Of a stretch of DNA of 59,489 nucleotides, positions 9,772 to 54,717 are shown piece by piece. The notes beneath the pieces are model-generated. The model saw only the letters and a list, made by a program, of their open reading frames with translations. It was not told where the DNA came from and did not search any database. The stretch lies in the IMG/VR virus record IMGVR_UViG_3300033562_001863, positions 1 to 59,489 of that record. One strand, written 5' to 3'. How positions within the stretch are numbered: position 1 is the first letter of the stretch; each line of letters begins with the position of its first letter. Both the position numbers and the translations under genes were made by a program. Source of the DNA: a virus (taxonomy: Duplodnaviria > Caudoviricetes).

Positions 9772-10764
9772 ATGAGAAAACTTGCTTCGATAAAAATAGT
9801 TTCCATAGTTCCTCATAACAACGCAGATAAACTTGAAATAGCAAAAATAGATGGTTGGCAATGTGTAGTTGGAAAGGGCGAGTTCAAAACTGGAGATAGG
9901 GCTGTTTATTTTGAAATCGATAGTATTCTTAATAAAGAAGATGAGAGATTTTCTTTTATGGAAGATAAAAAATATAGGGTAAGAACTATATCTCTTCGTG
10001 GTCAGATTTCTCAAGGTTTGGCCATGCCTATTTCAAAGTTTCCAGAGTTAAAAAGCTATACGATAAATGATGACGTTACAGAAATATTGAAAGTAGAAAA
10101 ATATGATCCTCCCTTACCAGTATGCTTAGGGGGAGAGCATCGATGTTATTTCCCAGGGATAGTTCCAAAAACAGATGAACCAAGAATACAGTTGTTCCCT
10201 AATATATTTGATGATTTCAAAGGAAAAGAAATATATATTTCCGTGAAGTGTGATGGAACCTCTGGCTCCTTTATAAATATAGATGGAGATTATCACGTTT
10301 GTGGAAGGTCTGTTTCCTTCAAAGAAAATGACGATAATACTTTCTGGAAGTTAAGCAAAAAATATAATCTAAAAGAAAAAATGCTTGCTTATGGCAACTA
10401 TGCTATTCAAGGCGAAGTGTGCGGCCCAAAAATACAGAAGAATAGGTTGAATTTAAAAGACCACGAACTGTTTGTATTCAATGTCTATGATATAGATAAT
10501 AAGAGATATTTTGATTTTGACGATTTTATGCATTTTTGTAATAGTTTAGAGCTTAAAACAGTCCCTATTATATTTAGAGGAGAGTTACCTTTTTCAACTA
10601 TAGAAGAAGGGTTGCTATATGCTGATGGGAAATATGAAGGGACTGATAATCTTCGAGAAGGTATTGTAATAAGAGCGACTAAAGGTTTTCATTCAAACGT
10701 AATAGGTGGTAGAAGTTCGTTCAAGATAATTTCTAATAAATATCTTCTTGAAGGCGGGGAATGA
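9772..10764 (+). CDS. ATP-dependent RNA ligase, DRB0094/Rnl5-like
   Basis: N-terminal RKLAS..ADKLE..DGWQCVV..YFEIDS module; KCDGTS, QGE, EGIV, SFK motifs. Confidence 0.85.
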   Translation: MRKLASIKIVSIVPHNNADKLEIAKIDGWQCVVGKGEFKTGDRAVYFEIDSILNKEDERFSFMEDKKYRVRTISLRGQISQGLAMPISKFPELKSYTINDDVTEILKVEKYDPPLPVCLGGEHRCYFPGIVPKTDEPRIQLFPNIFDDFKGKEIYISVKCDGTSGSFINIDGDYHVCGRSVSFKENDDNTFWKLSKKYNLKEKMLAYGNYAIQGEVCGPKIQKNRLNLKDHELFVFNVYDIDNKRYFDFDDFMHFCNSLELKTVPIIFRGELPFSTIEEGLLYADGKYEGTDNLREGIVIRATKGFHSNVIGGRSSFKIISNKYLLEGGE

Positions 10765-16431: not shown

Positions 16432-16502
16432 GTTCCCTTCGTCTATCGGTAGGACAACACATTCTCAGTGTGTAAAGATTGGTTCGACTCCAGTAGGGAA
16501 TA
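16432..16502 (+). tRNA. tRNA-Glu(CTC) copy 1
   Basis: Cloverleaf; anticodon arm ACACA-TTCTCAG-TGTGT. Confidence 0.85.
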
Positions 16503-19878: not shown

Positions 19879-20523
19879 ATGGGTCATTATGGTAGTGATT
19901 ATGAAGACAGCTATACATCAAAATCTGCTTGGACTCTTAGAGAAGGTTGTACTCCTTCTCCTGTTATACTAATGAATGCTAGTCAAGACAAACTTCATAT
20001 TGACCTTCCTGGGAGGAAATATATTAAGCACGAAAGATTAAGGAATGAGGGTTTTGCAGTTCATCAAAAACCAAATAGTCCAAGAGATACCATTGAAAAT
20101 AATGCAAAACCAAATATAGGTATTACAGAAGATTTAGAAAGTTTTGGGCACATACGAACATGGGAGCATTTTGGAGATTTAAGCCAAGATGATTATCCCC
20201 TTCTCGATTCTCTTGTCAGTAAGATTGGTTGGGTAGTTGGTAGTGATAAGCAAGGTAGAACTCTTTATCATTATTCAGCAGAACAATGTAAACAGCTTTT
20301 GCGTGAAGCTGGCTTTTTATGTGTTAAAATAAAAGATTGTCCTTTTTGTGGAAGTAAATCTAAAGTAGTTGAGTTACAAGATTGTGGAAGTAATAATCTA
20401 ACATATGTAGTTCAGTGTGAGAATTGCAAAGCAGAAACCACTGAGTTTGCTAATCCAGATATGGCTGTTCTAGCTTGGAACAATAGAATGACAGAAGAAA
20501 ATAAGTTAAAACAAAATACTTGA
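19879..20523 (+). CDS. protein with C-terminal Lar-like zinc finger
   Basis: CPFCGS...C..C...AWNNR. Confidence 0.6.
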   Translation: MGHYGSDYEDSYTSKSAWTLREGCTPSPVILMNASQDKLHIDLPGRKYIKHERLRNEGFAVHQKPNSPRDTIENNAKPNIGITEDLESFGHIRTWEHFGDLSQDDYPLLDSLVSKIGWVVGSDKQGRTLYHYSAEQCKQLLREAGFLCVKIKDCPFCGSKSKVVELQDCGSNNLTYVVQCENCKAETTEFANPDMAVLAWNNRMTEENKLKQNT

Positions 20524-21889: not shown

Positions 21890-21918
21890 TTGACAAAAAA
21901 TCGTATATACTGTATAAT
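21890..21918 (+). promoter_or_regulatory. sigma70-type promoter
   Basis: TTGACA-N17-TATAAT. Confidence 0.8.
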
Positions 21919-22563: not shown

Positions 22564-22737
22564 ATGGATCACAAGAATCTAAAAATTTTTTTGGACTGCT
22601 CTGGCAAGACGTTTGAATACAACCTCATCAATGACGATGGAGAGGTTATGCTCATGGGTGATGGATACGAAAGCGCGGATGAAATAATAGAAGAACTCTC
22701 TCTGTGGAACAATGCCCTTAAGCAAGTGTTTGGTTGA
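22564..22737 (+). CDS. 57-aa hypothetical protein
   Basis: MDHKNLKIFLDCSG...; GGGGAG RBS; not in ORF track. Confidence 0.55.
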   Translation: MDHKNLKIFLDCSGKTFEYNLINDDGEVMLMGDGYESADEIIEELSLWNNALKQVFG

Positions 22738-22743
22738 ACAAAA

Positions 22744-22847
22744 GGGGATAAAAGGTTTCGACATATATCTTGCTTAAAGCGACGCAAGGCCCACAGCTAT
22801 CGAAAGCTTAGAGATATATGGACCCGGCTTCAATGCCGGTATCTCCA
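22744..22847 (+). ncRNA. minimal tmRNA-like RNA (tRNA-like domain, ~40-nt interior)
   Basis: GGGGATA/TATCTCC-A acceptor with G3.U70; 5' GGTTTCGAC; 9-bp P2 CATATATCT/AGATATATG; GAC-CCGGC-TTCAAT-GCCGG T-arm. Confidence 0.75.
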
Positions 22848-22865: not shown

Positions 22866-23120
22866 ATGTATATTTTGAAAATGGTCGAGTGCATAGCTTA
22901 TTCAGGAACTTGGACAAGCTACTATGGCATTTTCTCAGATGATTCCATATCTTTAGTTGCCTTGGATAAGCTTAAAGTTTTTATTTCTAAACGTGATGGA
23001 TTAAAAATAGATTCGTGGGAAAGCATGGCTAGCGGAATTGGCTATGAATACCCTACAGGTGGAGATGGTTCTGTTGAAATATATTTAGAAGAAGTAGAGC
23101 TGAACAAAGAACTATTTTAA
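22866..23120 (+). CDS. hypothetical protein
   Basis: GAGG RBS. Confidence 0.6.
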   Translation: MYILKMVECIAYSGTWTSYYGIFSDDSISLVALDKLKVFISKRDGLKIDSWESMASGIGYEYPTGGDGSVEIYLEEVELNKELF

Positions 23121-27313: not shown

Positions 27314-27321
27314 TTTTATTT

Positions 27322-27392
27322 GTTCCCTTCGTCTATCGGTAGGACAGTTTGTTCTCAGCAAACAAAGATTGGTTCGACTCCAGTAGGGAATA
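27322..27392 (+). tRNA. tRNA-Glu(CTC) copy 2
   Basis: GTTTG-TTCTCAG-CAAAC. Confidence 0.85.
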
Positions 27393-27400
27393 TAGTTCAT

Positions 27401-27729: not shown

Positions 27730-27800
27730 GTTCCCTTCGTCTATCGGTAGGACGCTCCCTTCTCAGGGGAGAAAGATTGGTTCGACTCCAGTAGGGAATA
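27730..27800 (+). tRNA. tRNA-Glu(CTC) copy 3
   Basis: CTCCC-TTCTCAG-GGGAG. Confidence 0.85.
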
Positions 27801-28151: not shown

Positions 28152-28222
28152 GTTCCCTTCGTCTATCGGTAGGACAACACGTTCTCAGCGTGTAAAGATT
28201 GGTTCGACTCCAGTAGGGAATA
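28152..28222 (+). tRNA. tRNA-Glu(CTC) copy 4
   Basis: ACACG-TTCTCAG-CGTGT. Confidence 0.85.
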
Positions 28223-28827: not shown

Positions 28828-28898
28828 GTTCCCTTCGTCTATCGGTAGGACAGTTTGTTCTCAGCAAACAAAGATTGGTTCGACTCCAGTAGGGAATA
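28828..28898 (+). tRNA. tRNA-Glu(CTC) copy 5
   Basis: GTTTG-TTCTCAG-CAAAC. Confidence 0.85.
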
Positions 28899-29216: not shown

Positions 29217-29287
29217 GTTCCCTTCGTCTATCGGTAGGACGGTTTGTTCTCAGCAAACAAAGATTGGTTCGACTCCAGTAGGGAATA
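29217..29287 (+). tRNA. tRNA-Glu(CTC) copy 6
   Basis: GTTTG-TTCTCAG-CAAAC. Confidence 0.85.
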
Positions 29288-32599: not shown

Positions 32600-32673
32600 G
32601 GGCTTGTAGCTTATCTAGCAGAAGCACCTGATTTGCAATCAGGATATAGTCGGGGCAGCACCGATCAGGTCCA
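32600..32673 (+). tRNA. tRNA-Ala(TGC), non-canonical T-loop
   Basis: G3.U70; CCTGA-TTTGCAA-TCAGG; T-loop GGCAGCA. Confidence 0.75.
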
Positions 32674-32710: not shown

Positions 32711-32786
32711 CAGGGTGTATCTCAACAGTCTTCTAAACTGTAGCCGAGTAAATGGATCAATGCAGGTTCGATTCCTGTCTCCCTGA
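32711..32786 (+). tRNA. rearranged tRNA-like RNA, Arg(TCT)
   Basis: ACAGT-CTTCTAA-ACTGT enclosed by CTC/GAG; GG loop 3' of it; canonical T-arm. Confidence 0.55.
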
Positions 32787-48095: not shown

Positions 48096-49475
48096 ATGAA
48101 CTCTTTAGATAGTAAAAACTTCTCTATAATAAATAAACTGGCTGGGGATTATTTTTCTTTATCTCCAGACAGTTTTATTGTTTTTAATAAAGCTCTTATG
48201 GAAGGAAGAGAACTTCCAGAAGAATTTGCTGCAATACTAAAAGACTCTCCTGATGGTAGAGCAAGGTTTAAGGCCCCAGTCACTATAAACGAAAAAATAG
48301 ATGATGGCTGGAGACTATGGAAAGAAAAGTATAGCTCATTTTTTCAAACAAATAAAATAAGCTATGAAGAGTATTACAACAATAGAGTTAATAGCGAAGA
48401 TAGCAAAGTTCAAAAACTATCAAAATTTATTTCTAAATGGTTTTTTGAAAATACAAAAAGTTTTATAGAGCAAATGGCAAGATATAACACTTTGCGCATT
48501 ATTTATTCTTTTCTTGCTGCAAATGATATATCAAAAGAAAAATTCTTCTCTGATGTATTTGAAAAAGAAGAAAATATAAAAGCAGCAGTTGAAACTTGCC
48601 AAGCAATGAAACTGTCTGCTAAAGACGGTAAGCTTAAGATAAAGTTTTCTGTTTCAAAGAATGAAAAAAGTTTTAGTTTATATATAACTTTAGAGAAGTT
48701 TTCAAAGATACCTTATCTTGAAAGTTTGATAAACTATTATATACTAAAATCAAATGAAGAGGTTGGCAGAGTTGCTCTTCCTAAATCAAAAGATTTAGAG
48801 ATAGTGTTTTCTACAAACTTTGCTGACTGGTTTCTTTGTTCTACATCAGAAAGTTGGAGCAGTTGTCTGTCCCTTACAGCTAACTATTCCTCTGCTTATT
48901 GGGCTGGTCTTCCAGGGACGATAACTGACAAAAATAGAGCTTTAGTTTATTTGACCGACGGTAAGAAAAAAAACTACGAAGGAATAGAAGTAGATAGAAT
49001 TATTACAAGGTCTTGGGTTCTTTTGATGTCAAATGGGAAAAAAGATGTGCTTCATTTTGTAAATGAATATCCTGGCGGGTTTTCCTTATTTGGATTAACT
49101 AAAGAAATATTAAAGGGTTTCTTTGAAAATATTCTTTCCATAAAAGATTTGGATGAATACTACACTTCAAAATATCCTTTTGTTGGTTTGTTTCACAGTG
49201 CAGACCAAAAAGCTTATATCATAAGTTCTATTTTCTTTGATACTACTTACTTAAGGTTTATTAAAGCAAATAAAGATGAATGCTTATTCAAACACTGTGT
49301 GGGAGGAAGAGGCGGAAGTTGTTATGGCTTCAGTAAGAACACAAACAGAATAGAAAATGATTACGGCCATATAGATTTAGATAGTAGTTATAATGGTGAA
49401 GAGGATGCTGGTAGTGGATTAGAGTATTTGAAAAATACTGGGAAAACAATAGCTGACAATATCGTTACAGGGTAA
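48096..49475 (+). CDS. Cys-motif family protein
   Basis: NFADWFLCSTSESWSSC..YWAGLPG..DKNR..YLTDG..RSW. Confidence 0.75.
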   Translation: MNSLDSKNFSIINKLAGDYFSLSPDSFIVFNKALMEGRELPEEFAAILKDSPDGRARFKAPVTINEKIDDGWRLWKEKYSSFFQTNKISYEEYYNNRVNSEDSKVQKLSKFISKWFFENTKSFIEQMARYNTLRIIYSFLAANDISKEKFFSDVFEKEENIKAAVETCQAMKLSAKDGKLKIKFSVSKNEKSFSLYITLEKFSKIPYLESLINYYILKSNEEVGRVALPKSKDLEIVFSTNFADWFLCSTSESWSSCLSLTANYSSAYWAGLPGTITDKNRALVYLTDGKKKNYEGIEVDRIITRSWVLLMSNGKKDVLHFVNEYPGGFSLFGLTKEILKGFFENILSIKDLDEYYTSKYPFVGLFHSADQKAYIISSIFFDTTYLRFIKANKDECLFKHCVGGRGGSCYGFSKNTNRIENDYGHIDLDSSYNGEEDAGSGLEYLKNTGKTIADNIVTG

Positions 49476-49481
49476 AAAATA

Positions 49482-49510
49482 TTTACAAAGTTTTTATTCT
49501 ATGGTATAAT
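49482..49510 (+). promoter_or_regulatory. sigma70-type promoter
   Basis: TTTACA-N17-TATAAT. Confidence 0.75.
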
Positions 49511-49528
49511 ATTATATAGGGGGATACG

Positions 49529-51961
49529 ATGGGAACCAATGAAGAAGCTATTTTTGAAATAGTTAAAAATAACTTTGGATATGACGCAGAGAGTAGTGAT
49601 TTTATATACAAGCAACTATACGATAGAAACTTGGATAAAAGTATTACTGAAGCATTCTCATCGTATCCAGATGGAAGAATAAGAGTAAAAATAGACAACA
49701 AATATAAGGAAAATATAGACGAAGGTTGGAGAACTTTCATAAGCTTTTTCCCTACATTTACAAAAGAGTATAAAGTATCTTATGAAGACTTTGTAGAAAA
49801 TAGAGTTCTTGTTAATAAGAACACTATGAAACTAAAGAAAGCTATCACAAACTATAATGTTGATAAAGCATTCTCTCAAATGAGAGAAAAGAACTATGAT
49901 TTTTCTAATAAAATAGAATACATTTCAATAATAGACGATGTTATAGGAAAGGATAAAGTCTCCGCTATTATAGAAATTAAAGATGGAAATAGAAACATAA
50001 CTAATGTAATCACTGCTAGGGTTCCTGGCAGCGGATCTTCAAACATTTCTTTCATAGATATATCAAGCATGAGTTTTAAAAAGAAAATGTCAAAAGTAGA
50101 TACTCCAAAGATTATTTGTTTTAATGCTTTTTCAAATGGAGGGAAAGCAAGAACCTCTGGAAGAATTGTAACAAAATATGTAGTGACTAAAAGTGAAAAT
50201 ATTTTTTCTTTATTCACAAGTTCTGGGTCAAATCTTAGTTTTTCTCATCTGTTTGATATCAACAATGAAGAAGTAATCTCGTTGCTAGAAAAATCCACTT
50301 GGGTATCTTCTTATAGCAATGCCTTAAATGAAATATTTTTAGTTGTTTCTAGCAAAGAAGGAATAAGTACATTTGGATTTGATATTGAAAGTGAAAAATT
50401 TGTTTTAACAACACCTATAACAAAGACCAATCTTCCAGCAACAGATTTTCCTTTGTTTTGTAAAATAAAAGAAACCTCAGAGTTTTTGATTGGTGTTGCA
50501 CTTAACAATGATAAATTTACTGTAGGATACATAAGTAAAGATGGTATAAACTTTGAAGAAACTACTAGAGTAAATAAGGTAAGAAATAAAGAAATGGTTG
50601 GAAATCTGAACGGGGTTAATGCCTATCTTTATCAAAATACTTCTATCCTGTTAAGTCCAGATGCTGATGATAAAGCAATTAAAGAAGCTCTATTTGATAA
50701 AGTAGATAGAGATATTACAGAAAAGTTTGAAATAATAGGAGCAAAGTCGCTACCTAAAAATAAACAACTTGAAATAGTTTTCTCTATAAACTTTGCTGAC
50801 TGGTTTCTTTGTTCTACATCAGAAAACTGGACTTCTTGCTTGAATCTTGATAGTCATAGTCCATCAAGCCATTATCAAGGTTTGCCTGGCCTCCTTGGAG
50901 ATCCTAATAGAATGATGGTTTATATAACAGATGGTTCAGTGAAAGCTTACGATAATATAAGATCAGAAAAAATGTTTTCAAGAGCCTGGGTTCTTTTGGA
51001 TAAAGATAGTATATTTAATATAATAAAATTTTATCCATTAGAACTGTTAGGTCCAAAAGATTTAGATGAAATAGCACACGATATAGGTTTTAAGTTTAAA
51101 TTTATGGGAGAAGATTTTGTTTCAAAGAATAGCATAACTCCTGTTTATTTTAGCTATCCTCGTAATGATAAATTAAAGTTTTCGTCTTTCATATTCCAAG
51201 ACAAAACTACATTCAAGCAAATAAAGGATAAGTTTCATTTAGTATGGTCTCCTTCGAATAGTTATTATACTATAGTTAAAGACAACAACACAAGCAAATC
51301 TAAAATAAAGAATACAAGTTTGTTTCATTATGATGGCGGAACAAGAAATCTTATAAGAGCGGGAATTAAGATTACTTCATATTTCAAAATGTTAGGAGAT
51401 ATTTTTGCTGTTTGTACTGTTTGTGGAATTGATATAAATGAAACTTCCTCAAGAGCATTTAGTCATGATGATAAACGTTATTGTAGGCATTGCTACGAGA
51501 AAATGTTTTCAAGATGTAGCATATGTGGTATTAACTTCTTATCAGAAGAAGCTAAAGAAATAGATGGAAAAACTATTTGTCCTAGCTGCCACGAAAGATT
51601 TTCTACATCTTGCCATATATGTGGGAAAAACACTATAAAAAGATATACTGTTTATGAAGGAAAAGAGACAGTACATTTATGCGAAGGATGTTGTAATGAA
51701 ATTTCGTGCGACTCACATGAACCTAAGTATAAGAAATATGTAGATGGTATAAGATGCGTTGAATGTTCTGCTATATTTGTAGATAAAGAAGCCGAACAAT
51801 ACAACGGGGAAGTATTCAAAACCAGGGACGGAACAAAAATGATAAAATGTGTTCCTTGCTTACACAAGTATCAAGAAGAAAATCATTATGATGATACAAA
51901 CAGTGATGAAGATGACGAGTATTACAATGACGAAGAAAACGGCGACGATAATGAAGAATAA
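49529..51961 (+). CDS. Cys-motif family protein with large insert, zinc ribbons and acidic tail
   Basis: NFADWFLCSTSENWTSC..GLPG..DPNR..YITDG..RAW; multiple CxxC. Confidence 0.75.
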   Translation: MGTNEEAIFEIVKNNFGYDAESSDFIYKQLYDRNLDKSITEAFSSYPDGRIRVKIDNKYKENIDEGWRTFISFFPTFTKEYKVSYEDFVENRVLVNKNTMKLKKAITNYNVDKAFSQMREKNYDFSNKIEYISIIDDVIGKDKVSAIIEIKDGNRNITNVITARVPGSGSSNISFIDISSMSFKKKMSKVDTPKIICFNAFSNGGKARTSGRIVTKYVVTKSENIFSLFTSSGSNLSFSHLFDINNEEVISLLEKSTWVSSYSNALNEIFLVVSSKEGISTFGFDIESEKFVLTTPITKTNLPATDFPLFCKIKETSEFLIGVALNNDKFTVGYISKDGINFEETTRVNKVRNKEMVGNLNGVNAYLYQNTSILLSPDADDKAIKEALFDKVDRDITEKFEIIGAKSLPKNKQLEIVFSINFADWFLCSTSENWTSCLNLDSHSPSSHYQGLPGLLGDPNRMMVYITDGSVKAYDNIRSEKMFSRAWVLLDKDSIFNIIKFYPLELLGPKDLDEIAHDIGFKFKFMGEDFVSKNSITPVYFSYPRNDKLKFSSFIFQDKTTFKQIKDKFHLVWSPSNSYYTIVKDNNTSKSKIKNTSLFHYDGGTRNLIRAGIKITSYFKMLGDIFAVCTVCGIDINETSSRAFSHDDKRYCRHCYEKMFSRCSICGINFLSEEAKEIDGKTICPSCHERFSTSCHICGKNTIKRYTVYEGKETVHLCEGCCNEISCDSHEPKYKKYVDGIRCVECSAIFVDKEAEQYNGEVFKTRDGTKMIKCVPCLHKYQEENHYDDTNSDEDDEYYNDEENGDDNEE

Positions 51962-52023: not shown

Positions 52024-54717
52024 TTAACTGATGGTAGTTCCAGTTTTATAAACGTTAAGATTGAGCTCTATGATTTCAATGGTTCCAGTTGGAACTATCT
52101 TGATAATACCCTTCATTATGTTTTGTGCCATAACGTCGGCTGTATTTATAGAACTGTCAATAACAACCTTATACTGCTCTATACCATTATCCTGCCTTAT
52201 TGGCTCAAGGATTGAGTTAATAAGGTTAGTAGCGCTCTGCCAGCTGTCAGTGTTATTCGGCTCAAAAAGCATCGTGTTCATTGCCTGCTTAATAAGCTTC
52301 TTTGCGTATATCGTCATTCTTCTTACATTAACTCTATCTAGAGCTGATGTATTTCTCAGGGCAGTTTTCTGTCCATAAACGATAACACCTTTGCTGATAA
52401 AATTGACTATCGGATTTACACAGTTAAGGCCACCATAAAGTTCCTCACGCTCATTGAACGAAGGGGACTTTTCAAGGTCTTGAACTGACAGCACGCCTCT
52501 AGTGTCTCCAGCTGGAGCATACCAAGGATTGTAAAGCCTATCAACCTCAAGAAGCTTAGCAGCCATAAACACAGACGGTGGGCACCAAACGTAAGCTTTG
52601 TTCTCACTGTCATATTCTTTGAGCCAAGGCCAATAAACAGCAGCGTAAGAAGAAGTAACAGCTGAAGTCCTTACAAACTTACCATTGTGCCAGTTTTTAA
52701 CCTGGAGGTAAGTGTAACCCATAGGCGGATCAACCAAATAAATAAAGTCAGCTCTATTTTCAGCAAGAGCTATAGCCGCATCCTGAACTATCTGGGACGT
52801 ATTATCTGGAGTGATAAGAATGTGGAAATTGTAAAGTTCGTCGTTTGCCAAATCGCCAGAGGTAGAAAGGGCATTAACAAACAGATCTTCTCCTCCGATA
52901 GATGGAATACCATCAGTTCCAATCATGTAGTCGTATGAACCAATAGAGTTATTTATATCACCATAAGAAACGTCGGTTGAACCATCGTTAGCTTTTCCTA
53001 AATTATAGGTTCCGTCTGGGAAATCTACTTTTCCATCTCCAGTAGTATCTACAGTATCAAACTTAACCCACTCAGAACCACCCTCTTCAACTGAGACATT
53101 TATAACTTTCTCTATAAAGTTATCATCTGCTATGGTGAGAGATATGTTTCCAAAAGTCTCTTGTAGCTCTCCATCATAATAAACTTCAACAGTATAAATA
53201 TCTTCATCTGTCAAAGCATTGACAGTGGTACTTTTTACTACTGATATTCTGGATGTTGAACTACCAGTCTCTAAGCTGTCTATGATTACTTTATCAGAAG
53301 TATCTGATGTAACAGCAGGTTCTCCGGTTTCTGGGTCATCAACAAGCAACATAGTTGTTAAGCTGCTTCCAACTGTTCCAGTAACAACGCTAGGAGCTGT
53401 GGTTGTATTGCTGGTGAATCTTATTTTTCTTGTTGCACTGCTTCTGGAAACAGTATAACCAGTTATTGCTAGTCTGCCTAAGTTAGCGGCATCAACTGTT
53501 CCAAATAAAGTTATTAAACTTGTTCCATTTATTGAGGTATCGTTGATAGCTAAAGTAACATCTCCAGTCTTGGATTCTCCAAGGGTTAATCTAACCTTAA
53601 GAGTATTTGGATTTTGTTCAGCTGAAACTATGCCAGCCACTATTCCTGACTGACCAGGTTCTGTTATTTCACTGCCCTCTGTTACAAGAGCCCTTAATAT
53701 GTTCTCAGATCCTTCAACAACAGATTCAGGAATACTATTAACTCCAACAAAAGCAGAACTGCCCATAGCAGTTGAAACAAATAGTAAGTTACCACCTACA
53801 TGATAACACCTTGCCGCTATCTTCTGAGTAATCAAGGCATTATTTATTAGAGATACTGCTCCATTAACATCAACTGATGTTGGAGTTGGAATATATACTT
53901 CAGTGAATAAACTGTCGGTAGATACTGTCTTTATGAAAAGCTTGTATCCTGTATGCCCATCTCCACCTATAGTTATAGTTCCAGCTTCTCCATCTAAAGC
54001 CCATGATGTATATCCTCTTGTTCCACTAGTTATAGCTTCATTTATTTTTGTGGCTATATTAGAAAGACTGTCCGTGCTTGAAAGCTGGAGCATTATTTCT
54101 TGGTTATTTGATGAGTTTGAATATATATTAGCTCCACCAACGAGTATGTTCATTCCATAAATAGTTGAGCCATTTATTGAAACAGCTCCAGAAGAAAACT
54201 CTTGGAAGCTTCTAGTTACTCCAAAACCACTTTCTATCTGTGAATAGATATTATCCATATACCATCCACCAGAAGCAGGTGATGATAGATAAATCGGAGC
54301 TTCTGATCCAGATGCTCCAACTTTAAATGAATAAACTTTACCATTAGTAAAACCAGCTGTGCCTACAGGAACATCACTACTTCTTGTAAATTCAGTGTAT
54401 CCATTTATCTGATCTTTTGTATTGTTTATAACCCTTCTTGATGAAAGAGCCATATCACCACCATCTATCTTAGCCACTCTAGTAAACACTACTTGGTTTC
54501 CTTGCTTAAAAGCATTGATGATAGCTAGATAAGAGTACGGTATCCTCGAGCAATATCCAAAAATCTTTTTAAAACTTTTGAGAGAAGTTACCATAGTAGG
54601 TACTCCAATAGGTCCTTTAGTAGCGTATCCTACCACTGCAAGCACAGTTTCTGAGCTTGTCACTGTATAAGTAGATAAGTCTTTTTCTATAAGCGTTACG
54701 CTTGGTGACTTTGCCAT
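52024..54717 (-). CDS. contractile tail sheath protein with large inserted domains
   Basis: N-terminal SP.V...E.DLS..G.A.KGP; C-terminal YWPW, PPS, W.APAG..RG, GQKT..SALDRVNVRR, FEPN. Confidence 0.9.
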   Translation of the reverse strand: MAKSPSVTLIEKDLSTYTVTSSETVLAVVGYATKGPIGVPTMVTSLKSFKKIFGYCSRIPYSYLAIINAFKQGNQVVFTRVAKIDGGDMALSSRRVINNTKDQINGYTEFTRSSDVPVGTAGFTNGKVYSFKVGASGSEAPIYLSSPASGGWYMDNIYSQIESGFGVTRSFQEFSSGAVSINGSTIYGMNILVGGANIYSNSSNNQEIMLQLSSTDSLSNIATKINEAITSGTRGYTSWALDGEAGTITIGGDGHTGYKLFIKTVSTDSLFTEVYIPTPTSVDVNGAVSLINNALITQKIAARCYHVGGNLLFVSTAMGSSAFVGVNSIPESVVEGSENILRALVTEGSEITEPGQSGIVAGIVSAEQNPNTLKVRLTLGESKTGDVTLAINDTSINGTSLITLFGTVDAANLGRLAITGYTVSRSSATRKIRFTSNTTTAPSVVTGTVGSSLTTMLLVDDPETGEPAVTSDTSDKVIIDSLETGSSTSRISVVKSTTVNALTDEDIYTVEVYYDGELQETFGNISLTIADDNFIEKVINVSVEEGGSEWVKFDTVDTTGDGKVDFPDGTYNLGKANDGSTDVSYGDINNSIGSYDYMIGTDGIPSIGGEDLFVNALSTSGDLANDELYNFHILITPDNTSQIVQDAAIALAENRADFIYLVDPPMGYTYLQVKNWHNGKFVRTSAVTSSYAAVYWPWLKEYDSENKAYVWCPPSVFMAAKLLEVDRLYNPWYAPAGDTRGVLSVQDLEKSPSFNEREELYGGLNCVNPIVNFISKGVIVYGQKTALRNTSALDRVNVRRMTIYAKKLIKQAMNTMLFEPNNTDSWQSATNLINSILEPIRQDNGIEQYKVVIDSSINTADVMAQNIMKGIIKIVPTGTIEIIELNLNVYKTGTTIS

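What the first reader, a model, noticed from the sequence alone, without database searches (positions are those of the whole stretch)
22744..22847. 104-nt mini-tmRNA: intact alanyl-tRNA-like domain with almost no mRNA-like domain
Seen: GGGGATA...TATCTCC-A acceptor with G3.U70 and A discriminator, stemless D-loop AAAGGTTTCGAC, a perfect 9-bp P2 helix, the 3' GAC plus T-arm typical of ssrA, and only about 40 nt inside (hairpins CTTGC/GCAAG and AGCT/AGCT; one frame ends ...AAA GCT TAG). Established: bacterial tmRNA is roughly 350 nt with pseudoknots and a tag ORF; tag-less forms are known from some mitochondria; the tRNA-like domain binds SmpB, AlaRS and EF-Tu. Inference: either an SmpB sponge that blocks host trans-translation, or a minimal rescue RNA that frees ribosomes without adding a degradation tag.
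Basis: partly seen in the sequence, partly recalled or inferred. Interest (0 to 1): 0.8.

Follow-up and report, generated by a model that had tools for sequence, protein, structure and literature searches.

The report
Tag-less mini-tmRNA in a large phage
This 104-base gene in a large uncultured phage is a real, stripped-down copy of the bacterial ribosome-rescue RNA (tmRNA) that keeps the alanine-accepting tRNA-like part but has no tag-coding part; one phage example of this kind was already published, and relatives turn out to be common in uncultured phages.

Summary
Window 22744-22847 (+) has a 7-bp acceptor stem with G3:U70, an A discriminator, GGTTTCGAC, a 9-bp P2, GGAC and a T arm. It exactly fills the gap between two + strand ORFs in a myophage fragment estimated about 25% complete.

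ARAGORN and Rfam do not call it. A covariance model built from 13 relatives without the window hits only this site (93.4 bits, E 4.8e-25).

Capped pattern scans gave 57 distinct validated relatives, nearly all from viral or metagenome contigs. G3:U70 is kept in 57 of 57 and discriminator A in 55 of 57. All four helices covary (94% paired; 0 of 500 shuffles reach this). No reading frame or stop codon is conserved, so the RNA is tag-less.

A 3-4 bp inner helix closes a conserved loop (GACGAAAGGCCCA...ACGAAA). The same model also finds the published 'TLD-only' ssrA of mycobacteriophage DS6A (42.7 bits), which carries a similar loop motif.

So this is a new member of a known kind. By published precedent such RNAs inhibit host tmRNA, perhaps by titrating SmpB. 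The universal alanine identity suggests that charging matters. Function is untested here. Interest is moderate.

The parts
22744..22750 (+). Acceptor stem, 5' strand (GGGGATA)
   Evidence: Pairs 7 of 7 with 22840-22846. G3:U70 is kept in 57 of 57 relatives. G1-C72, G2-C71, G3-U70 and G4-C69 are invariant in 21 of 21 aligned sequences, and pairs 5-7 covary.
22751..22761 (+). D-loop analogue without a D stem (AAAGGTTTCGA; with C22762 it makes the tmRNA signature GGNTTCGAC)
   Evidence: It is the only GGNTTCGAC in the window. GG and TTCGAC are invariant in the 16-sequence alignment A1. They match the RF00023 consensus GGaUUCGAC printed.
22762..22770 (+). P2 helix, 5' strand (CATATATCT)
   Evidence: 9 perfect pairs with 22812-22820. 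All 9 pairs show changes on both sides across 21 sequences. Contiguous P2 pairing averages 6.7 bp in 57 relatives against 1.8 bp in the mismatched-partner control.
22777..22780 (+). Inner helix Pa, 5' strand (AAGC)
   Evidence: Pairs with GCTT at 22806-22809. All 4 pairs covary, e.g. AGC/GCT, TCC/GGA, CCC/GGG and GGA/TCC.
22781..22805 (+). Conserved 25-nt loop GACGCAAGGCCCACAGCTATCGAAA (family consensus GACGAAAGGCCCA-N4-6-ACGAAA)
   Evidence: In the 13 relatives, GAC, AAA and CGAAA are invariant and GCC is nearly invariant. The window copy departs at two of these positions, an invariant A (C at 22785) and a nearly invariant A (T at 22800), and its spacer is 1 nt longer. DS6A carries GACGAAAACCGCA in its interior. 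The loop's function is unexplained.
22806..22809 (+). Inner helix Pa, 3' strand (GCTT)
22812..22820 (+). P2 helix, 3' strand (AGATATATG); its last G is the first base of GGAC
22820..22823 (+). GGAC, the 3' junction typical of the tmRNA tRNA-like domain
   Evidence: Invariant in alignment A1. Matches the RF00023 consensus GGACG printed.
22824..22839 (+). T arm: CCGGC / TTCAAT / GCCGG (5-bp stem, 6-nt loop)
   Evidence: All 5 pairs covary and are 100% paired in 21 sequences. The 6-nt loop class, closed by C:G or U:A, occurs in 13 of 57 relatives.
22840..22847 (+). Acceptor stem, 3' strand (TATCTCC) plus discriminator A; no CCA is encoded
   Evidence: The discriminator is A in 55 of 57 relatives and CCA is encoded in 19 of 57. 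Only 1 of the window's 22 tRNA genes has CCA at its end.
21890..21918 (+). Candidate promoter of the transcription unit that holds the element (TTGACA-17-TATAAT, 12 of 12)
   Evidence: Consensus scan. No terminator-like site lies between 21800 and 23600. This is a match to a consensus only, not shown to function.
22564..22737 (+). Upstream neighbour ORF (57 aa); it ends 6 nt before the element
   Evidence: No PHROG match. Not conserved next to relatives.
22866..23120 (+). Downstream neighbour ORF (84 aa); it starts 18 nt after the element
   Evidence: No PHROG match. Not conserved next to relatives.

Best explanation
The element is a one-piece, tag-less mini-tmRNA (a 'TLD-only' ssrA) carried by a large myophage.

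**Likely expression and processing (inferred).** It is probably transcribed with the neighbouring small genes. It would then be cut out like a tRNA, given CCA by a CCA-adding enzyme (none was found in the window, so presumably the host's), and charged with alanine by host AlaRS through G3:U70 and A73.

**Likely action (inferred).** With its intact SmpB-binding elbow (GGNUUCGAC, GGAC, T arm) it would compete with host tmRNA for SmpB, EF-Tu and stalled ribosomes. Phage-directed translation products would then not receive the degradation tag, and host trans-translation would be blunted.

**What is shown and what is not.** Shown here: the anatomy, the covariation, family membership, the phage context and the lack of a conserved tag frame. 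Taken from the literature: a TLD-only molecule inhibits tmRNA in E. coli. Inferred: processing, charging, SmpB binding and the benefit to the phage. The role of the conserved inner loop is unknown.
For: **Family membership**
- A model built from 13 relatives without the window hits only 22744-22847, at 93.4 bits and E 4.8e-25. The next best hit is a tRNA-Ser at 14.8 bits.
- The same model hits the published DS6A TLD-only ssrA, L235:28478-28557, at 42.7 bits and E 1.5e-9.
- Three relatives pass Rfam's tmRNA gathering score of 47 bits (68.9, 59.9 and 50.8 bits).

**Structure**
- In 21 sequences, 94% of cells are paired and 21 of 25 pairs change on both sides. 0 of 500 shuffles reach these values, and slid controls give 40-52%.

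**Alanine identity**
- G3:U70 is kept in 57 of 57 relatives and A73 in 55 of 57. Neither was imposed by the search pattern or the filter.

**Tag-less**
- No frame or stop codon is shared. Close relatives differ by 1-nt indels inside the loop.

**tRNA-like expression context**
- 17 of 57 relatives have a same-strand tRNA within 1 kb, 13 of them within 100 nt. Examples are L012, L004, L007 and L014.
- The window element fills an intergenic gap exactly.

**Phage origin**
- The window is a virus record with a tail sheath gene and 22 tRNA genes.
- The strict stem test (5 of 5 T-stem and 7 of 7 acceptor pairs) is passed by 10 of 12 viral pattern loci, but only 6 of 95 loci from bacterial and archaeal genomes.

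**No phage SmpB**
- None was found in the window or in 5 related phage records, 3 of them at least 90% complete. Host SmpB would therefore be the partner.

**Published precedent**
- PMC4131195 (passages read) and PMC11915505 (passages read).
Against: - There is no expression evidence for this element.
- Alanylation, SmpB binding and inhibition were not tested and cannot be tested with these tools.
- Mao et al. 2009, the only experimental source, is not in the held library. I know it only through two citing papers, which say inhibition occurred 'whether or not chargeable'. The strict conservation of the alanine identity is therefore not explained by simple titration.
- The window copy has a 6-nt T loop and departs from two otherwise conserved loop positions (one invariant, one nearly invariant).
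- It is not reported by RF00023, by ARAGORN, or at E<=10 by any full-length Rfam match.
- The conserved inner loop has no role in this explanation.
- The window is only about 25% of the phage, so a canonical tmRNA or an SmpB gene elsewhere in the genome is not excluded.
Confidence: 0.6

Rival explanations
1. Tag-less rescue RNA. Ala-mini-tmRNA with SmpB and EF-Tu enters stalled ribosomes and accepts the nascent chain, adding one alanine. The ribosome is then freed by drop-off or by a release factor or hydrolase. Phage ribosomes are recycled without the product being marked for proteolysis. The conserved inner loop would help in this step, for example by occupying the empty mRNA channel.
For: - The alanine identity set is kept (G3:U70 57 of 57, A73 55 of 57), although the citing paper says inhibition does not need charging.
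- A conserved inner hairpin loop is under selection beyond the tRNA-like domain.
- The element sits among phage translation-support genes: 22 tRNA genes and an RNA ligase.
- Tag-less mitochondrial tmRNAs that co-occur with SmpB are thought to help with incomplete mRNAs (PMC11915505).
Against: - No release mechanism is evident. No RF-1/ArfB-type or peptidyl-tRNA hydrolase domain is in the window, although only about 25% of the genome was seen.
- No stop codon is conserved in the loop.
- No experiment supports it.
Confidence: 0.25
2. Minimal coding tmRNA. In the window the loop would template a very short tag (read ...ATQGPQLSKA, then stop at TAG), so this would be ordinary trans-translation with a tiny mRNA-like domain.
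For: - One frame in the window ends at TAG within GCTTAGAG.
- Four relatives (L094, L048, L012, L059) share a frame reading (S/R)DE(R/K)P..TKA followed soon by a stop.
- Tags as short as 2 aa are known in bacteria (PMC11915505).
Against: - That frame is broken by 1-nt indels in the window itself and in L029, L073, L047, L119 and others.
- L009 has no stop after the motif in any frame, and the frame through the motif runs on without a stop in L013.
- The TAG lies in the covarying Pa/P2 strands, whose sequence changes freely in relatives.
- The putative tags lack the usual hydrophobic Ala-Ala ending (recalled feature of tags).
Confidence: 0.05
3. Decaying remnant of a once complete phage tmRNA gene, with no present function.
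For: - The window copy departs from two otherwise conserved loop positions (one invariant, one nearly invariant) and has a short T loop.
- Standard detectors miss it.
Against: - All four helices are kept by compensatory changes across very different sequences (element G+C 38-71%).
- G3:U70 is never 'repaired' to G:C in 57 sequences.
- The size class is discrete and the inner loop is conserved.
- The element fills its intergenic gap exactly.
Confidence: 0.05
4. Phage attachment site (attP) fragment. Many integrating elements carry a copy of the 3' end of ssrA to restore the host gene after integration.
For: The BLAST search with a relative's 3' half did find such 3' ssrA fragments next to integrases in temperate phages, e.g. 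Pseudomonas phages MR13 and MR15.
Against: - attP copies hold only the 3' part. Here the 5' acceptor strand, the D-loop analogue and the 5' strand of P2 are all present and covary with their 3' partners.
- No integrase is near the element.
- The phage is a tRNA-rich myovirus.
Confidence: 0.02

Closest known systems
'TLD only' ssrA of Mycobacterium phage DS6A (Hudson, Lau and Williams 2014, PMC4131195; Mao et al. 2009, RNA Biol 6:355, not read)
   Same: - Phage-borne, one-piece and tag-less.
- GGGG acceptor with G3:U70 and discriminator A, a short P2, a T arm and no encoded CCA.
- Its interior carries GACGAAAACCGCA, like the family's GACGAAA(A/G)GC(C/G)CA.
- It is hit by the family model at 42.7 bits, E 1.5e-9.
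- Like the window element, ARAGORN -m misses it and it is not annotated in its GenBank record.
   Different: - DS6A is 80 nt, with a 5-bp P2 that closes the motif directly. The window family is 101-110 nt, with a 9-bp P2, an asymmetric internal loop, the extra helix Pa and a second ACGAAA repeat.
- DS6A is a GC-rich temperate siphovirus. The window is an AT-rich (about 35% G+C), tRNA-rich myovirus fragment.
- DS6A's D-loop reads GGTGGTCGAC.
Canonical one-piece bacterial tmRNA (Rfam RF00023)
   Same: - The tRNA-like domain matches the consensus: GGGG..GGaUUCGAC...GGACG, T arm..CUCCA (consensus printed).
- Three relatives exceed the gathering score by aligning both ends of the model.
   Different: - About 290-300 model positions are missing: the pseudoknots, the resume codon, the tag frame and the stop.
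- The window copy itself is not reported by RF00023.
Tag-less organellar tmRNAs: jakobid and other mitochondria (Rfam RF02544) and the ~65-bp plastid forms of Mallomonadaceae (PMC11915505)
   Same: They are reduced to the tRNA-like domain with no tag frame, and are thought to act with SmpB.
   Different: - The mitochondrial genes are usually permuted.
- RF02544 gives only a partial 13.8-bit match (gathering score 65) to the 3' half of the window element.
- They are organellar, not viral, and have no GACGAAAGGCCCA loop.
Two-piece (permuted) tmRNA genes, including phage ones
   Same: They share the tRNA-like domain sequences. Such genes do occur in phages (PMC9004378; and five cultured phages seen here).
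   Different: In permuted genes the 3' acceptor piece comes first and the GGGG 5' piece follows downstream. Here the order is standard and the RNA closes on itself within 104 nt. tmRNA_permuted (RF04321) gives only a truncated 11.8-bit match.

Membership tests
tmRNA tRNA-like domain (TLD) | 7-bp acceptor stem beginning GGGG with the G3:U70 wobble pair and an A discriminator (alanine identity) | tested here: met
   GGGGATA/TATCTCC plus A. G3:U70 in 57 of 57 relatives and A73 in 55 of 57. Pairs 1-4 are invariant in 21 of 21 sequences.
tmRNA tRNA-like domain (TLD) | D-loop analogue GGNUUCGAC without a D stem, and GGAC before the T arm | tested here: met
   22754-22762 and 22820-23. These columns are invariant in alignment A1. 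They agree with the RF00023 consensus printed.
tmRNA tRNA-like domain (TLD) | T arm with a 5-bp stem and a 7-nt UUCRANN loop | tested here: inconclusive
   The stem is 5 of 5 and covaries, but the loop is UUCAAU, 6 nt, closed by C:G. The same variant occurs in 13 of 57 relatives, so it is a conserved alternative and not damage. Whether it folds as a T loop is not testable here.
tmRNA tRNA-like domain (TLD) | Helix P2 joining the 5' and 3' halves directly after GAC and before GGAC | tested here: met
   9 perfect pairs. All 9 pairs covary. The family mean is 6.7 contiguous bp against 1.8 bp in the control.
tmRNA (Rfam RF00023) as curated | Score at or above the gathering threshold (47 bits) | tested here: not met
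   There is no RF00023 match to the window element at the gathering threshold or at E<=10. Relatives L242, L243 and L244 score 68.9, 59.9 and 50.8 bits and pass. L245 scores 33.1 bits and fails.
Functional trans-translation tmRNA (with mRNA-like domain) | Resume codon and a conserved tag reading frame ended by a stop codon | tested here: not met
   Three-frame translation of 19 family members shows no shared frame or stop. 1-nt indels separate close relatives.
Functional trans-translation tmRNA (with mRNA-like domain) | Pseudoknots PK1-PK4 | tested here: not met
   Only 39 nt lie inside P2. The covariation-supported structure is a single 4-bp helix with a 25-nt loop. I found no complementary partner for the loop's GGCCC by eye; that is inference only.
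Phage TLD-only ssrA (DS6A type) | Homology to the published DS6A element | tested here: met
   Model R1, built from the window's relatives, hits L235:28478-28557 at 42.7 bits, E 1.5e-9, over the full model length. The two share the GACGAAA..C.CA motif.
Phage TLD-only ssrA (DS6A type) | Encoded in a phage genome, with no tag frame | tested here: met
   The window is a virus record with a tail sheath gene and 22 tRNA genes. There is no conserved frame.
Phage TLD-only ssrA (DS6A type) | Inhibits host tmRNA tagging; binds SmpB | not testable with these tools
   This is known only from the citing papers' account of Mao et al. 2009. No RNA-protein prediction tool is available.
Two-piece (permuted) tmRNA | 3' acceptor piece upstream of the 5' GGGG coding piece | tested here: not met
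   The order is standard and the match to R1 is full-length. RF04321 gives only a truncated 11.8-bit match.
tRNA (RF00005) | Cloverleaf with D stem and anticodon arm | tested here: not met
   Rfam reports no tRNA match here even at E<=10. ARAGORN makes no tRNA call.

The most novel reading that the evidence does not exclude
TLD-only mini-tmRNAs are a widespread class of phage RNAs that is largely uncatalogued. They are not mere SmpB sponges.

- They must be alanylated, as shown by G3:U70 never being lost.
- They carry a second functional module, the Pa hairpin with its GACGAAAGGCCCA...ACGAAA loop, which is shared even with DS6A.
- That module would act on the stalled ribosome or on a host rescue factor, for example by plugging the empty mRNA channel, or by serving as a second SmpB or S1 site.

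The result would be a phage counter-measure that redirects ribosome rescue away from tagging and degradation.
Probability: 0.3. Interest if true: 0.75.

Novelty: new member of a known kind. Interest (0 to 1): 0.5.

Why it matters
Trans-translation is the main ribosome-rescue and quality-control pathway in bacteria. One phage (DS6A) was known to carry a tag-less tRNA-like-domain RNA, and the 2025 tmRNA database lists only 9 'standard, no CDS' sequences among 97,179.

This work adds four points:
- The window element belongs to the same kind.
- Dozens of distinct relatives sit in uncultured phage contigs, often inside tRNA gene arrays.
- ARAGORN called none of the copies I gave it (the window's and those in 25 related loci) or DS6A's, and Rfam does not report the window copy.
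- The family keeps the alanine identity and a conserved inner loop.

If phages commonly interfere with or hijack host ribosome rescue, that bears on phage-host conflict over translation: tRNA-cleaving defences, mRNA-cleaving toxins, and the tagging of phage proteins. It also offers small natural RNAs as probes or inhibitors of tmRNA-SmpB.

Tried and rejected
- **Standard detectors.** ARAGORN finds 0 of the mini-tmRNAs, in the window, in 25 related loci or in DS6A. Lowered thresholds gave only spurious permuted calls. Rfam at the gathering threshold and at E<=10 gives no full match for the window copy.
- **BLAST against 50,697 phage records.** The 1.6-kb region and the element alone gave no match. 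A relative (L048) matched only 3' halves of canonical or permuted tmRNA genes and attP-like fragments. No cultured phage with a mini form other than DS6A was found. The 'phages' collection cannot be pattern- or model-scanned.
- **Expression.** No RNA holder was listed for the region, and read laying was not used.
- **Partner proteins.** The window has no SmpB, RF-1/ArfB-type, peptidyl-tRNA hydrolase or CCA-adding domain, and five related phage records have no SmpB. No protein family recurs next to the element; the most widespread is in 3 of 20 loci, all close relatives. The neighbours have no PHROG hits.
- **Motif outside mini-tmRNAs.** A scan for the loop motif in viral contigs gave 8 loci: 4 mini-tmRNAs (2 already held, plus the same new element in two records) and 4 in other contexts (3 distinct sequences), one of which I read as coding. 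That is roughly what I estimated chance would give.
- **Ideas for the loop, considered by eye and dropped (inference only).** These were a pseudoknot with an upstream GGGC (no partner exists); dimerisation through GGCC (not conserved; L094 and L004 have AGCC); a Shine-Dalgarno mimic (not conserved); and pairing of ACGAAA with the D-loop UUCG (cannot be tested by covariation because UUCGAC is invariant).
- **Sources not available.** Mao et al. 2009 is not held, and supplements were not consulted.
- **L207.** This 99-nt 'mini' in a Pseudescherichia MAG lies at the normal chromosomal ssrA locus. It is probably an internal deletion or an assembly artefact, so I do not count it as evidence for the phage family.

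Full report
**1. What is there**

The window is a 59,489-base virus record, estimated about 25% complete. It carries a tail-sheath gene at 52024-54717 (-), an RNA ligase at 9772-10764 and 22 tRNA genes. G+C is about 35%. Its sheath protein is under 40% identical to any cultured phage. It is therefore a fragment of a large uncultured myovirus.

- an acceptor GGGGATA/TATCTCC with G3:U70 and discriminator A, with no CCA encoded;
- GGTTTCGAC, the only GGNTTCGAC in the window;
- a perfect 9-bp P2 (22762-22770 with 22812-22820);
- GGAC followed by a T arm.

The composite pattern occurs once in the window and in 0 of 100 shuffles. The element fills the gap between the + strand ORFs 22564-22737 and 22866-23120. 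A perfect sigma-70 consensus lies 830 nt upstream at 21890-21918, and no terminator-like site is nearby. The window's tRNA genes also lack CCA (1 of 22 has it).

**2. Detectors miss it, but it belongs to a family**

ARAGORN does not call it. Rfam reports nothing for it at the gathering threshold. At E<=10 Rfam gives only partial hits to the 3' half: mt-tmRNA at 13.8 bits and tmRNA_permuted at 11.8 bits.

I scanned public collections with a pattern for the tRNA-like domain and a short interior (GGGG N6-8 GGNTTCGAC N35-65 GGAC N5 TTCRA).
- Viral contigs gave 12 loci.
- Bacterial and archaeal genome contigs gave 95 loci.

The pattern fixes neither the 3' acceptor strand nor the 3' T-stem strand. 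Requiring 5 of 5 T-stem pairs and 7 of 7 acceptor pairs at the predicted distance is therefore an independent test.
- It is passed by 10 of 12 viral loci, 55 of 119 metagenome loci and 6 of 95 genome loci.
- Of the 6 genome loci, 2 contain masked N. A third (L207) is the chromosomal ssrA locus of a MAG with an internal deletion, probably an artefact.
- After removing duplicates and rows with N, 57 distinct sequences remain: 1 from the window, 10 viral, 42 metagenome and 4 genome.

**3. Tests that do not depend on how the set was chosen**

- In the 57 sequences, the partner of G3 could have been C or U. It is U in 57 of 57.
- The discriminator is A in 55 of 57.
- CCA is encoded in 19 of 57.
- P2, which was not used for selection, has a mean of 6.7 contiguous pairs. 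The control that pairs each 5' strand with another sequence's 3' strand gives 1.8.

A covariance model (R1) built from 13 relatives, without the window, hits the window only at 22744-22847. The score is 93.4 bits, E 4.8e-25, over the full model length. The next hit is a tRNA-Ser at 14.8 bits.

On a 21-sequence model-fitted alignment:
- 94% of cells pair.
- 21 of 25 pairs change on both sides.
- 0 of 500 shuffles reach any of the five measures.
- Sliding the partners gives 40-52% paired.

Caveat: 13 of the 21 sequences built the model and the alignment is fitted to it. The anchor-based counts do not share that bias.

**4. Anatomy inside P2**

The window's closest relatives are L094 (104 nt) and L048 (105 nt). 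In the subfamily scoring 77-110 bits (the window plus 13 relatives), P2 is followed by these parts:
- a 5-12-nt 5' bulge;
- a 3-4-bp helix Pa, which covaries (AGC/GCT, TCC/GGA, CCC/GGG, GGA/TCC);
- a 23-25-nt loop of consensus GACGAAAGGCCCA-N4-6-ACGAAA;
- a 2-4-nt purine bulge.

The window copy departs at two conserved loop positions and has one extra spacer base.

Three-frame translation of 19 members shows no shared frame or stop.
- Four members share (S/R)DE(R/K)P..TKA followed by a stop.
- 1-nt indels break that frame in the window and in most others.
- L009 has no stop after the motif in any frame.

I conclude that the RNA is tag-less and that the conserved loop acts as RNA. I could not explain what it does.

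Thirteen of the 57, the window included, have a 6-nt T loop (UUCRAU) closed by C:G or U:A.

**5. Context of relatives**

Seventeen of the 57 have a same-strand tRNA gene within 1 kb, and 13 of those within 100 nt. In L012, L004, L007 and L014 the element sits inside a tRNA array with spacers of 5-13 nt. This fits co-transcription and tRNA-type processing.

No protein family recurs next to the element. Five related phage records, three of them at least 90% complete, have no SmpB and no full-length tmRNA. In three of the five, the mini form itself passes Rfam's tmRNA gathering score (68.9, 59.9 and 50.8 against 47 bits).

**6. What is known**

- *Hudson, Lau and Williams 2014* (PMC4131195, passages read) list 'Mycobacterium phage DS6A (TLD only)'. 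[quoted passage not shown] They cite Mao et al. 2009, which is not held, so I did not read it.
- *The 2025 tmRNA database paper* (PMC11915505, passages read) repeats this. It counts 79 phage sequences and only 9 'standard, no CDS' sequences in all.
- *The huge-phage survey* (PMC7162821, passages read) assigned tmRNAs with ARAGORN, which misses these forms.

My full-text searches found no description of a broad phage family of TLD-only tmRNAs. Supplements were not seen and subscription journals are mostly not held, so this is not proof of absence.

I located the DS6A element myself at L235:28478-28557 (80 nt, not annotated in the record). Model R1 hits it at 42.7 bits, E 1.5e-9. Its interior reads GACGAAAACCGCA..., like the family motif.

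**7. How it most likely works**

Shown:
- It is a homologue of the tmRNA tRNA-like domain under purifying selection.
- It keeps the alanine identity set.
- It has no tag template.
- It is carried by phages that lack SmpB.

From the literature: such a molecule inhibits tmRNA.

Inferred: it is cut out like a tRNA, receives CCA, is charged by AlaRS, and binds host SmpB (and EF-Tu). It thereby competes with host tmRNA at stalled ribosomes.

The strict retention of G3:U70 is not needed for titration alone. It points either to entry into the ribosome as a charged complex or to tag-less rescue. The conserved Pa loop may act at that step.

I put 0.6 on the competitor reading (which includes the sponge), 0.25 on productive tag-less rescue, and 0.05 or less each on a tiny tag, a decaying remnant and an attP fragment.

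**8. Verdict**

The functional proposals are reasonable, and one of them has published precedent.

This is a new member of a known kind. Its added value is the evidence that the kind is common in uncultured phages, that it keeps its alanine identity, and that it carries a conserved inner module.

Interest: 0.5.

Noticed in passing
L237 (Stenotrophomonas phage Mendera), L238 (Xanthomonas phage X1), L239 (Alcaligenes phage vB_Af_QDWS595), L240 (Xanthomonas phage JGB6), L241 (Acinetobacter phage BUCT628); around locus positions 1400-1700: These cultured phages carry what look like permuted two-piece tmRNA genes. A 3' acceptor piece ends ...CTCCACCA (…GTCCACCA in X1). Then, 29-129 nt downstream, comes a 5' piece starting GGGG (GGGC in X1) and containing GGNTTCGAC (GGCTTTCGAC in QDWS595), whose first 7 bases pair 7 of 7 with the acceptor 3' strand. 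In four of the five records no feature is annotated at the matched 3' piece; in JGB6 a hypothetical-protein CDS on the opposite strand overlaps it.
   Followed up: partly
window 16432-16502, 27321-27393, 27730-27800, 28152-28222, 28828-28898, 29217-29287: There are six tRNA-Glu(CTC) genes. Five of them lie in a run at intervals of roughly 390-680 nt, which suggests a tandemly amplified tRNA-containing unit.
   Followed up: no
window 32600-32673 and 32711-32786: Rfam reports two further tRNA matches (40.2 and 35.6 bits) that ARAGORN does not list.
   Followed up: no
window 9772-10764 (+); DS6A gp76 (record 49300-50502): The window encodes an RNA ligase (Pfam RNA_ligase, E 7e-27). DS6A, the published carrier of a TLD-only ssrA, encodes an RtcB-like RNA ligase. 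Both phages therefore pair an RNA-repair ligase with a mini-tmRNA. This may be coincidence.
   Followed up: no
13 of 57 mini-tmRNAs, e.g. window 22829-22834, L013, L047, L059, L063: A recurrent T-arm variant has a 6-nt loop UUCRAU. Its closing pair is C:G or U:A instead of the usual G:C with a 7-nt loop.
   Followed up: partly
L207:4791-4889: A Pseudescherichia MAG has, at its normal chromosomal ssrA locus, a 99-nt tmRNA gene that lacks the whole middle. The flanks match the ordinary ssrA neighbourhood of enterobacteria. It may be a real deletion or an assembly artefact.
   Followed up: partly
L086 (38-134 and 5714-5774, -) and L085 (2118-2214 and 8522-8616, +): Two metagenome contigs each hold two separate matches to the mini-tmRNA model. 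One match is only 61 nt long.
   Followed up: no
L015:850-923 (-): ARAGORN calls a tRNA with anticodon CTA (labelled tRNA-Pyl) 56 nt from a mini-tmRNA in a metagenome contig. It may be an amber-suppressor tRNA in a phage.
   Followed up: no
L071:149-232 and L144:1414-1521: ARAGORN labels these two mini-tmRNA-like elements as tRNA-Ala. L144 lies in a Candidatus Uhrbacteria MAG contig of 175 kb, so it could be a cellular reduced tmRNA rather than a phage one.
   Followed up: no
window 19879-20523 (+): This ORF has a C-terminal match to Lar-like restriction-alleviation proteins (phrog_599, E 8.8e-11). It lies 2.2 kb upstream of the element among small genes of unknown function.
   Followed up: no
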